Made by a program: the position numbers and the translations under genes. DNA of 64,000 bases from a virus (lineage: Duplodnaviria; Caudoviricetes). Below are positions 34,483-34,806 of the stretch, in pieces (the first letter of the stretch is position 1; every line of letters begins with the position of its first letter). The stretch lies in the IMG/VR virus record IMGVR_UViG_3300037721_000031, positions 128,001-192,000 of that record. One strand, given 5' to 3'. Below the pieces are notes generated by a model that saw only the letters and a program-made list of their open reading frames with translations, had not been told where the DNA came from and ran no database searches.

Positions 34483-34806
34483 TGGAACCGATCGCCTGAA
34501 TCGAACAGACTTCTATCACCTAACGTTTATCCCAACTGTTAACTGTGTAACTCACTGCTTCTGCGTCATTGGACTGCCTGTGCTATCTCTTAGCACAGGC
34601 TTCTCTTAGAGAATTTATCCAATTGTCTAGATAGCGGAGATTACTACATTACCAGCATCAATACCCATAGACGTTTATTCACATCCGAAGATGAACGTTC
34701 AGCCAGGGCGGGCTAGGACTAGCTAAATGCTATCTGCTCCTAAGTGGGCAGACTCCTATTGATCAGACTACATACAGTGATTGCTCTACCAATGAGCTAG
34801 ATCGGC
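34483..34806 (-). ncRNA. tRNA body with ~250-nt structured insertion replacing the anticodon loop
   Basis: 5' GCCGATC-TA-GCTC-ATTGGTA-GAGC-A-ATCAC (34806-34777) and 3' GTGAT-AGAA-GTCTG-TTCGATT-CAGGC-GATCGGT-T-CCA (34519-34483) flank 257 nt. Confidence 0.8.

What the first reader, a model, noticed from the sequence alone, without database searches (positions are those of the whole stretch)
34483..34806. Complete tRNA scaffold with a ~250-nt structured insert replacing the anticodon loop
Seen: intact acceptor stem (GCCGATC/GATCGGT, U73, CCA), D arm, anticodon stem ATCAC/GTGAT and T arm. The 7-nt loop is replaced by 257 nt with nested helices (ATCAATA/TATTGAT, ATTGGA/TCCAAT enclosing TTCTCTAAGAGAA and GCCTGTGCTA/TAGCACAGGC, and a TTCG-capped stem). 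The insert lacks group I P7 signatures, and the RNA lacks tmRNA's G3-U70 Ala identity while keeping a D stem. Total size (324 nt) and topology are tmRNA-like, and a short frame MGIDAGNVVISAI* lies inside. Inference: a new intron class, a Thr-like chargeable tmRNA analogue, or a tRNA-scaffolded functional RNA.
Basis: partly seen in the sequence, partly recalled or inferred. Interest (0 to 1): 0.85.

Follow-up and report, generated by a model that had tools for sequence, protein, structure and literature searches.

The report
Phage tRNA-shaped RNA with giant insert
A giant phage encodes an RNA with a complete, well-kept tRNA body but no anticodon loop: that arm runs on as a helix into a conserved 257-base folded domain, so it is probably an unspliced, non-decoding tRNA-shaped carrier RNA of unknown function.

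Summary
On the minus strand (34806 to 34483) of a 266-kb uncultured jumbo phage lies a 324-nt RNA inside a tRNA gene array. It has an acceptor stem, D arm, T arm, elbow pair and U73-CCA.

Where the anticodon loop should be, the stem continues as a helix into two multi-helix domains. Relatives from other samples (94%, 88% and about 75% identical, plus read-derived strains) keep both body and insert. Compensatory changes occur in every tRNA stem, in the 19-56 elbow pair and in most insert helices, and G-U patterns place the RNA on the minus strand.

It is not a group I intron. Rfam gives no hit at E<=10, the U-G and terminal-G splice signatures are not conserved, and no consistent 7-nt anticodon loop can be formed. 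It is not a tmRNA: C3-G70 is invariant, the short reading frame is not conserved and the phage has no SmpB. The phage also lacks protein splicing enzymes.

A true IC3 group I ribozyme sits next door, but it is a separate cassette.

Best reading: a non-decoding tRNA-shaped carrier RNA matured like a tRNA. The nearest natural analogue is T4 species 1 RNA, and this scan has noted similar phage RNAs on other DNA. Expression and function are untested.

The parts
34800..34806 (-). Acceptor stem, 5' strand (RNA positions 1-7, GCCGAUC)
   Evidence: Pairs with 34487-34493. Compensatory C2-G71>U-A and A5-U68>G-C in L002; G1.U72>A-U in strain X2.
34783..34797 (-). D arm (positions 10-24): stem GCUC/GAGC, loop AUUGGUA carrying the elbow GG
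   Evidence: Compensatory C11-G23>U-A (L002) and C13-G21>U-A (L017, L015). The elbow pair G-C becomes A-U in L002.
34776..34781 (-). 'Anticodon' stem, 5' strand (positions 26-31), pairs with 34515-34520
   Evidence: The four inner pairs (27-30/288-291, UCAC/GUGA) are invariant. 26-292 is A-U, U.G or U-U. 31-287 is U.G, C-G or U-A. No 7-nt loop follows.
34765..34773 (-). Helical continuation, 5' strands: H1 (positions 34-37) and H2 (39-42), pairing with 34523-34526 and 34529-34532
   Evidence: H1 pair 35-283 is U.G (window), U-A (X2, X4, L015, X8) and C-G (L002). H2 is only partly supported and is absent in L002.
34657..34763 (-). Insert domain 1 (positions 44-150): closing helix AUCAAU/AUUGAU around a multi-helix junction (hpA 34732-34753, hpB 34699-34726, hpC region 34663-34698)
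   Evidence: Closing pair A-U>G-C in L002. hpA has 3 compensatory pairs. The hpB tip is variable and is shortened in X8. The hpC region has two exclusive folds, each with some comparative support.
34535..34656 (-). Insert domain 2 (positions 151-272): long closing stem plus a three-way junction core at 34568-34623. The core comprises helix AUUGGA/UCCAAU, the invariant hairpin UUCUC-UAA-GAGAA at 34601-34613, and the covarying hairpin with loop ANAGA at 34576-34600.
   Evidence: The hairpin at 34576-34600 has 5 compensatory pairs. One-sided changes give G.U only on the minus strand. The closing stem GCUG/CAGU corresponds to GUCA/UGAC in L002, with 3 compensatory pairs.
34483..34520 (-). 3' half of the tRNA body: stem 3' strand (34515-34520), 4-nt variable loop AGAA, T arm GUCUG-UUCGAUU-CAGGC (34494-34510), acceptor 3' strand (34487-34493), U73 (34486), CCA (34483-34485)
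   Evidence: T-stem U-A>C-G in L002. T-loop C56>U pairs with the D-loop change. U73 is kept in L017, L015 and L002. CCA reads CCC in L015/L016.

Best explanation
This is a non-decoding, tRNA-shaped RNA derived from a class I, Thr-like phage tRNA gene. Its anticodon arm has no loop. Instead it continues as a helix into a conserved structured payload of 257 nt (about 490 nt in a relative), built from two multi-helix domains.

Inferred life cycle: it is transcribed with the neighbouring tRNAs of the minus-strand array. Because the acceptor/T-arm stack and the D/T elbow are intact, RNase P should cut it at G1 and the tRNA end-processing enzymes should finish it at the encoded CCA. It then persists as a stable ~324-nt L-shaped particle carrying the payload where the anticodon would be.

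It is not spliced and cannot read codons. The tRNA body serves as a processing and stability handle, and possibly a protein-recruiting one. The payload, with its invariant hairpin UUCUC-UAA-GAGAA and its CUA-ANAGA-UAG hairpin, is the working part, most plausibly a binding platform or decoy for a host or phage factor.

Shown here: the architecture, its conservation, the strand, and the absence of intron and tmRNA hallmarks. Inferred only: processing, stability and payload function.
For: The scaffold is real and under selection. There are compensatory changes in the acceptor stem (2), D stem (2), extended anticodon stem (2) and T stem (1), plus the tertiary elbow pair G-C>A-U (alignments).

The insert is also under selection. 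There are compensatory pairs in H1, the domain-1 closing helix, hpA (3), the 34576-34600 hairpin (5) and the domain-2 closing stem (3). Overall, 18 of 90 RNAalifold pairs changed on both sides.

The strand is minus. One-sided strain changes give G.U on the minus strand but A.C on the plus strand.

The RNA sits inside a tRNA array and behaves as a cassette. It lies downstream of the group I element here but upstream of it in L002, and is absent in L018/L019.

Helix tips expand while junctions stay fixed: a 27-nt hairpin duplication and a ~230-nt addition in L002.

No known RNA family matches the insert.

T4 species 1 RNA (rnaC), in the T4 tRNA cluster, likewise has a T arm and an acceptor-like stem around a non-tRNA body (PMC2330249 shows RNA species I and II on the map of that region).

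Earlier notes of this scan describe many phage tRNA-shaped RNAs with replaced anticodon arms on other DNA. I treat these as leads only.
Against: Expression and processing were not observed.

Only one small phage clade carries it. Three sequence-distinct homologues are in hand as DNA (L016 and L003 duplicate L015 and L002), and the four read-derived strains were reconstructed from difference tables. Pattern scans of viral, metagenome and genome collections found nothing.

The payload's function is pure inference. CCA reads CCC in L015/L016. Part of domain 1 has two competing folds, and helix H2 is not conserved in L002.
Confidence: 0.65

Rival explanations
1. It is an ordinary decoding tRNA interrupted by a self-splicing intron. 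The intron would be a divergent group I or an unrecognised class, removed to give a ~76-nt tRNA.
For: Group I introns of bacteria classically sit in tRNA anticodon loops (PMC3984707). ARAGORN -i models it as tRNA(uua) with a 231-nt intron flanked by U and G. A candidate P3/P7-type pseudoknot, GUCUA/UAGAC, exists in the window sequence.
Against: RF00028 gives no hit at E<=10 on this stretch, yet it detects the neighbouring intron.

The junction sequences pair with each other and covary. G283 is A in X2, X4, X8 and L015. G287 is A in L002. U31 is C in X4 and L015, so neither a U.G nor a terminal G is conserved.

No combination of junction nucleotides gives a 7-nt loop with U33 and R37 and the same anticodon in the window and in L002.

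ARAGORN's alternative stem has a C-U mismatch and no counterpart in L002. The GUCUA/UAGAC pairing is also absent in L002.
Confidence: 0.07
2. The insert is a core-less intron or substrate that depends on the neighbouring IC3 group I ribozyme. The ribozyme would act on it in cis or trans, or the two RNAs would form a complex.
For: The two RNAs are adjacent in all four lineages that carry the tRNA-shaped RNA.

They exchange peripheral modules. The mini tRNA-like element is in the ribozyme here (35280->35216) but in the insert in L002. The CUA-AGAGA-UAG hairpin occurs in the insert and also in the ribozyme's P5 extension in L018.

The ribozyme's 5' region contains AGUGAU, complementary to the invariant stem strand AUCACU in the window and in L002.
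Against: That complementary segment lies in a local helix that itself covaries. In L017 (AGUGGC) and L015 (AGUAGU) it does not follow the tRNA stem, which reads UUCACU and UUCACC there.

The order of the two elements is swapped in L002, and L018/L019 keep the ribozyme alone. The ribozyme has its own covarying flanking helix, AACCGU/ACGGUU versus AACUGC/GCAGUU. The junction has no conserved splice-site nucleotides.
Confidence: 0.1
3. It is a tmRNA-like ribosome-rescue RNA: a chargeable tRNA-like domain plus a message-like domain.
For: The topology (tRNA ends enclosing a large structured insert) and the size (324 nt) resemble tmRNA. A 13-codon frame exists in the window sequence. There is a weak, sub-threshold SspB-like hit elsewhere in the window (18.8 bits against a cut-off of 27).
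Against: ARAGORN and Rfam find no tmRNA. C3-G70 is invariant, so the G3.U70 alanine identity is absent. A full D stem is present.

The frame is cut by UGA after 7 codons in L015 and X8 and has no start in L002. The phage has no SmpB.
Confidence: 0.03
4. It is a dead tRNA gene, disrupted by inserted junk or a small mobile element and now decaying.
For: It cannot decode. The encoded CCA has become CCC in L015/L016. The X8 contig carries a foreign 3' acceptor strand.
Against: Substitutions are overwhelmingly pairing-preserving in both the body and the insert, including the tertiary elbow pair. The same architecture is kept down to about 72% identity. There are no terminal inverted repeats or target duplications, and the insert joins the stem as a continuous helix.
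Confidence: 0.05

Closest known systems
Bacteriophage T4 small stable RNAs, species 1 (rnaC, 139 nt) and species 2 (rnaD, 119 nt)
   Same: These are phage-encoded, non-decoding stable RNAs inside a tRNA gene cluster. rnaC folds with a canonical T arm (CCGGG-UUCGAAU-CCCGG) and an acceptor-like terminal stem around a non-tRNA body. That their function is still unknown is from my own knowledge.
   Different: There is no detectable sequence relation. The T4 RNAs are 2-3 times smaller. By my reading of the fold, rnaC lacks a clear D arm. Here the complete class I tRNA body is kept and the payload is 257-490 nt with two multi-helix domains.
tmRNA (SsrA, Rfam RF00023)
   Same: A tRNA-like acceptor and T-arm module closes a large structured RNA, with the CCA end at the 3' terminus.
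   Different: There is no G3.U70, no conserved tag frame and no pseudoknot-ring signature. A full D stem is present, and neither ARAGORN nor Rfam detects a tmRNA.
Pre-tRNAs with IC3 group I introns in the anticodon loop (Azoarcus tRNA-Ile, cyanobacterial tRNA-Leu; Rfam RF00028)
   Same: A bacterial-type tRNA gene is interrupted at the anticodon arm by 200-250 nt of structured RNA. A genuine IC3-like ribozyme lies right beside it.
   Different: The insert has no P4/P7 core, no RF00028 signal, no conserved splice-site U.G or terminal G, and yields no anticodon loop.
Engineered 'tRNA scaffold' RNAs (Ponchon and Dardel; PMC3753655)
   Same: The design is the same: a foreign structured RNA is fused to the anticodon stem of a tRNA, so that the cell processes and stabilises it like a tRNA.
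   Different: Those scaffolds are man-made. This one is natural, conserved and covarying in a phage clade.
Phage tRNA-shaped RNAs with replaced anticodon arms noted earlier in this scan (e.g. e1-5339353, e1-5335764, e1-1918950)
   Same: The concept is the same: a tRNA upper body with an insert instead of the decoding arm, located in phage tRNA arrays.
   Different: Those are AI notes, and I did not test them. They describe mostly Leu-like (class II) scaffolds with 20-115-nt inserts. Here the scaffold is Thr-like class I and the insert is much larger and has two domains.

Membership tests
tRNA (RF00005), structural body | 7-bp acceptor stem, D arm, T arm with UUCGAUU-type loop, G19-C56 elbow pair, discriminator plus CCA | tested here: met
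   All are present. They are kept through compensatory changes in L017, L015 and L002, including the elbow G-C>A-U.
tRNA (RF00005), decoding function | 5-bp anticodon stem closed by a 7-nt loop with U33, an anticodon and a purine at 37 | tested here: not met
   The stem continues as a helix. No join of the junction nucleotides gives U33 and R37 with a consistent anticodon in the window and in L002. cmscan does not call it.
Group I intron (RF00028) | Match to the covariance model (P3-P9 core with P4, P7, and the J3/4, J6/7 and J8/7 joining segments) | tested here: not met
   No hit at E<=10 on 34300-35000. The same search finds the neighbouring intron at 22.8 bits, and at 37.3 bits in L002.
Group I intron (RF00028) | U.G pair at the 5' splice site and a terminal G at the 3' splice site | tested here: not met
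   U31.G287 becomes C-G (X4, L015) or U-A (L002). G283 becomes A (X2, X4, X8, L015). G287 becomes A in L002.
Group I intron (RF00028) | P3/P7 pseudoknot with a guanosine-binding site | tested here: not met
   The only candidate (GUCUA at 135-139 with UAGAC at 178-182) has no counterpart in L002.
tmRNA (RF00023) | G3.U70 alanine identity pair in the acceptor stem | tested here: not met
   C3-G70 is found in all homologues.
tmRNA (RF00023) | Conserved tag reading frame ending in a stop codon; detection by ARAGORN or Rfam | tested here: not met
   The frame is truncated in L015 and X8 and has no AUG in L002. No tmRNA is called.
tmRNA (RF00023) | SmpB partner | tested here: inconclusive
   There is no SmpB in the phage genome. 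The unknown host could supply one.
Archaeal/eukaryal protein-spliced tRNA intron (bulge-helix-bulge) | 3-nt bulge, 4-bp helix, 3-nt bulge at the exon-intron junctions, plus a splicing endonuclease and ligase | tested here: not met
   The junction has 2x2 and 1x2 internal loops here and a single bulged U in L002. The phage has no tRNA_int_endo, RtcB, Rnl1 or Rnl2.
Phage tRNA-cluster stable RNAs (T4 species 1 type) | Non-decoding RNA in a phage tRNA array, with a tRNA-like acceptor and T-arm end | tested here: met
   The array context is shown. The T4 rnaC fold shows a T arm and a terminal stem. This is a resemblance of kind only; no sequence homology was found.
Phage tRNA-cluster stable RNAs (T4 species 1 type) | Accumulates as a stable processed RNA in infected cells | not testable with these tools
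   No usable RNA reads were available.

The most novel reading that the evidence does not exclude
The tRNA body is a generic carrier handle, used by phages to make, stabilise and address large functional RNA payloads. This one would be the largest and most ornate so far. Its payload shares exchangeable modules (a mini tRNA-like elbow and the CUA-ANAGA-UAG hairpin) with the neighbouring group I ribozyme. That suggests a phage RNA toolkit of interchangeable structural cassettes acting on a common partner, for example a tRNA-directed host defence nuclease or a tRNA-processing factor.
Probability: 0.3. Interest if true: 0.85.

Novelty: new variant of a known kind. Interest (0 to 1): 0.62.

Why it matters
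Phage tRNA arrays are usually read only as codon-usage or anti-defence tRNA supplies. This locus shows selection keeping a full tRNA body, down to the tertiary elbow pair, on an RNA that cannot decode. It also shows selection keeping a 257-490-nt two-domain RNA grafted onto that body.

Natural tRNA-scaffolded RNAs would explain the 50-year-old puzzle of T4 species 1 and 2 RNAs. They would add a class of large structured phage RNAs with no family in Rfam. They would also offer natural blueprints for RNA expression scaffolds.

Module exchange with a neighbouring group I ribozyme hints that large phage RNAs evolve by cassette shuffling.

Tried and rejected
- **Rfam** at gathering and at E<=10 over the insert found nothing.
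- **BLAST** against 50,697 phage records matched only the neighbouring tRNAs.
- **Exact and gapped pattern scans** of viral contigs (5 scans with motifs of this RNA, 1 with a group I motif), metagenome contigs (2 scans) and genome contigs (1 scan) gave 0 hits. Near relatives may be masked there.
- **A protein-anchored locus search** in viral contigs found no relative.
- **More distant homologues of the neighbouring ORF** (47-57% identity) lie in phages without this RNA island.
- **ARAGORN's tRNA(uua) suppressor model** was rejected. Its stem is poor and it is not conserved in L002.
- **A P3/P7-like pseudoknot** was rejected.
- **Pairing between the neighbouring ribozyme's AGUGAU and the tRNA stem** was rejected because covariation fails in L017 and L015.
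- **Pairing of the insert's UAGUCU with the ribozyme's P7 strand** was rejected. P7 covaries AGACUA/UAGUC > AGACUG/CAGUC in L002 while the insert stays UAGUCU.
- **A plus-strand terminator reading** of hairpin 34576-34600 was rejected on the strand-specific G.U pattern.
- **A profile search** of the insert against the whole phage genome and all loci found one copy per genome.
- **Pfam and PHROGs** on flanking ORFs were uninformative.
- **The X8 contig's 5' exon and 3' acceptor** were left out of the pair counts as unreliable.

Full report
**Context**

The window is bases 128001-192000 of a 266,566-bp IMG/VR virus record, estimated 98% complete. It is a jumbo phage with about 40% G+C and long open frames under code 11.

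The finding lies in a minus-strand tRNA array. The array holds Ser, Asn, two Arg, Leu, Thr and Ser, plus a CAU tRNA seen only by Rfam. From here on, RNA positions are numbered i = 34807 minus the window coordinate.

**Checking the observation**

Read on the minus strand, positions 1-31 and 287-324 make a class I tRNA body:
- acceptor GCCGAUC/GAUCGGU (G1.U72)
- U8-A9
- D arm GCUC-AUUGGUA-GAGC
- stem AUCAC(U)/(G)GUGAU
- a 4-nt variable loop
- T arm GUCUG-UUCGAUU-CAGGC
- U73 and an encoded CCA

Default ARAGORN and Rfam miss it. The whole 324 nt folds to -105.6 kcal/mol, with z = -3.25 against shuffles.

**Relatives**

Collection scans with exact motifs found nothing. Two other routes worked.

First, public runs holding near-identical DNA were laid on the window. 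Strains X2, X3 and X4 (about 96-98% identical) and X8 (about 88%) all carry the insert. No insert-less allele appeared.

Second, homologues of the neighbouring ORF (35819-36217) led to contigs with the locus:
- L017, 94% identical
- L015/L016, 88% identical
- L002/L003, 72-77% identical in the alignable parts; there the RNA is 560 nt long (L002:6399-6958)
- L018/L019, which have the neighbouring group I element but not this RNA

**The tRNA body is under selection**

Across these sequences (pair table; RNAalifold) the following changes keep pairing:
- Acceptor: C2-G71>U-A, A5-U68>G.U>G-C, G1.U72>A-U.
- D stem: C11-G23>U-A, C13-G21>U-A.
- T stem: U-A>C-G.
- Elbow: the D-loop G that pairs with T-loop C56 becomes A in L002, exactly where C56 becomes U.

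A decaying pseudogene would not do this.

**There is no anticodon loop**

The stem is 6 bp. Pair 31-287 is U.G, C-G or U-A. After a small internal loop the stem continues as a 4-bp helix, 34-37/281-284. Its pair 35-283 is U.G in the window, U-A in X2, X4, X8 and L015, and C-G in L002.

In L002 the stem and this helix form a 10-bp helix with one bulged U. So the nucleotides that an intron model needs as loop residues are paired with each other, and they covary.

I tried every way of joining 5' and 3' junction residues into a 7-nt loop. None gives U33 and a purine at 37 together with the same anticodon in both the window and L002.

**The insert is a conserved structure on the minus strand**

The helix opens into a junction carrying two domains.

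*Domain 1 (positions 44-150)*
- It is closed by AUCAAU/AUUGAU, which becomes G-C at the outer pair in L002.
- hpA has three compensatory pairs.
- hpB has a fixed base and a variable tip.
- The region at positions 109-144 has two mutually exclusive folds. The other is GGAUGU-GAAUAA-ACGUCU inside AUCU/GGGU.
- The two folds are within about 3 kcal/mol of each other, and each has some comparative support: ACGU/ACGU becomes ACAU/AUGU in L002, while the GGAUGU hairpin is duplicated in L002 with pairing kept.

*Domain 2 (positions 151-272)*
- It has a long closing stem: GCUG/CAGU here and GUCA/UGAC in L002, with three compensatory pairs.
- Its three-way core consists of helix AUUGGA/UCCAAU, the invariant hairpin UUCUC-UAA-GAGAA, and a 10-bp hairpin.
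- That 10-bp hairpin changes fast but always pairs. It has five compensatory pairs, and its closing CUA/UAG and loop ANAGA stay fixed.

One-sided strain changes in that hairpin (34581, 34582, 34598, 34599) give G.U on the minus strand and A.C on the plus strand. This fixes the strand and rules out the plus-strand terminator look-alike seen.

Overall, 18 of 90 consensus pairs changed on both sides. L002 enlarges the RNA only at helix tips and by added hairpins.

**Why it is not a group I intron**
- RF00028 gives nothing at E<=10.
- U.G at the 5' site and the terminal G are not conserved.
- The one P3/P7-like pseudoknot candidate is missing in L002.

**Why it is not a tmRNA**
- ARAGORN and Rfam call no tmRNA.
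- C3-G70 is invariant and a D stem is present.
- The 13-codon frame is cut short in L015 and X8 and has no start in L002.
- The phage has no SmpB.

**Why it is not protein-spliced**

There is no bulge-helix-bulge motif. The phage has no splicing endonuclease, RtcB, Rnl1 or Rnl2. It also has no Ro/TROVE protein or CCA-adding enzyme.

**The neighbour**

Directly upstream (about 35810->34818, minus strand) is a real IC3-type group I core. It has AAAUUCGGCG...CGCCGAGCCAAGC and GGUGUAGAGACUAGAUGGAGAU...UAGUCC. RF00028 scores it 22.8 bits here and 37.3 bits in L002.

I tested whether it could act on the tRNA-shaped RNA. Its AGUGAU segment is complementary to the invariant stem strand in the window and in L002. 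However, that segment lies in a local covarying helix, and it does not track the stem in L017 or L015.

The element order is swapped in L002, and L018/L019 keep the ribozyme alone. The two are therefore separate cassettes.

They do share modules:
- A roughly 100-nt mini tRNA-like element (Rfam tRNA, 36 bits, no anticodon arm) is in the ribozyme here and in the insert in L002.
- The CUA-AGAGA-UAG hairpin also occurs in the ribozyme's P5 extension of L018.

**Interpretation**

The best-supported reading is a non-decoding, tRNA-shaped carrier RNA. The intact acceptor/T-arm stack and elbow are what RNase P and the 3'-end enzymes recognise; this is established knowledge, not tested here. So the RNA should be cut out of the array transcript like its tRNA neighbours and persist as a stable particle presenting the payload.

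What the payload binds is unknown. A decoy or platform for a tRNA-directed host factor is a reasonable guess, but it is only a guess.

**Comparison with what is known**

The nearest natural precedent is T4 species 1 RNA, which lies in the T4 tRNA cluster and has a T arm and a terminal stem around a non-tRNA body (PMC2330249). The nearest design precedent is the engineered tRNA scaffold (PMC3753655).

Literature searches found no description of such large natural tRNA-scaffolded phage RNAs. Earlier notes of this scan report similar, smaller cases in many other phages, so the kind has been seen before on other DNA. Those notes are untested leads.

**Limits**
- There is no direct evidence of expression.
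- The family is known from one small clade.
- The strain sequences were rebuilt from difference tables, and X8's ends are unreliable.

Noticed in passing
window 34818-35810 (minus strand); L002:6959-7965: An IC3-type group I intron core lies with no protein or tRNA host gene around it. RF00028 scores it 22.8 bits here and 37.3 bits in L002. Its two flanks pair (AACCGU/ACGGUU here, AACUGC/GCAGUU in L002, two compensatory changes). Splicing after CUUAU and before UA would leave a 6-bp stem with a 7-nt loop CUUAUUA, an anticodon-arm look-alike. The splice sites were not established.
   Followed up: partly
window 35216-35280 (minus strand); L002:6745-6808: A mini tRNA-like element has acceptor-like, D and T arms but an anticodon arm reduced to about 11 nt (Rfam tRNA, 36 bits). 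It sits at the tip of a long helix inside the group I element. In L002 the same ~100-nt module, flanks included, sits inside the insert of the tRNA-shaped RNA instead.
   Followed up: partly
window 36926-37449 (minus strand): A 5' tRNA half (GGGCCGU UA GCUCAGAUGGUUAGAGC AGCGGCUU) is followed by an HNH endonuclease ORF (36990-37400, phrog_14913, E=2e-35) and then a complete CAU-anticodon tRNA (37004->36929; Rfam 51 bits, missed by ARAGORN). This looks like a homing-endonuclease insertion with partial tRNA duplication.
   Followed up: partly
window 37837-38854 and 30990-31860 (minus strand): These two further ORF-free stretches (about 1 kb and 0.87 kb) in the same island were flagged by first readers as ornate RNAs. 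The first contains GUACGUAGUCU, which resembles the junction motif (U)ACGUAGUCU of the tRNA-shaped RNA in L002. Neither has an Rfam hit at gathering score.
   Followed up: no
L015:3058-3146, L017:2911-2999, L018:4340-4428 (approximate): In the relatives, the gene after this locus is a long-variable-arm (class II-like) tRNA whose anticodon loop reads CUUGUAA. That is anticodon UGU (Thr) on a Ser/Leu/Tyr-type body.
   Followed up: no
window 55657-55929 (minus strand): A weak, sub-threshold SspB-like match (PF04386, 18.8 bits against a cut-off of 27, E=2e-4) lies in a 186-aa open frame. It is not enough to call an SspB.
   Followed up: no
run X8, contig over window 34496-34806: A divergent strain's contig joins the T arm of the tRNA-shaped RNA to a different 3' acceptor strand (UGUGGGC-A-CCA). 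This may be a recombinant with a neighbouring tRNA through the shared T-arm sequence, or an assembly chimera at depth 5.
   Followed up: no
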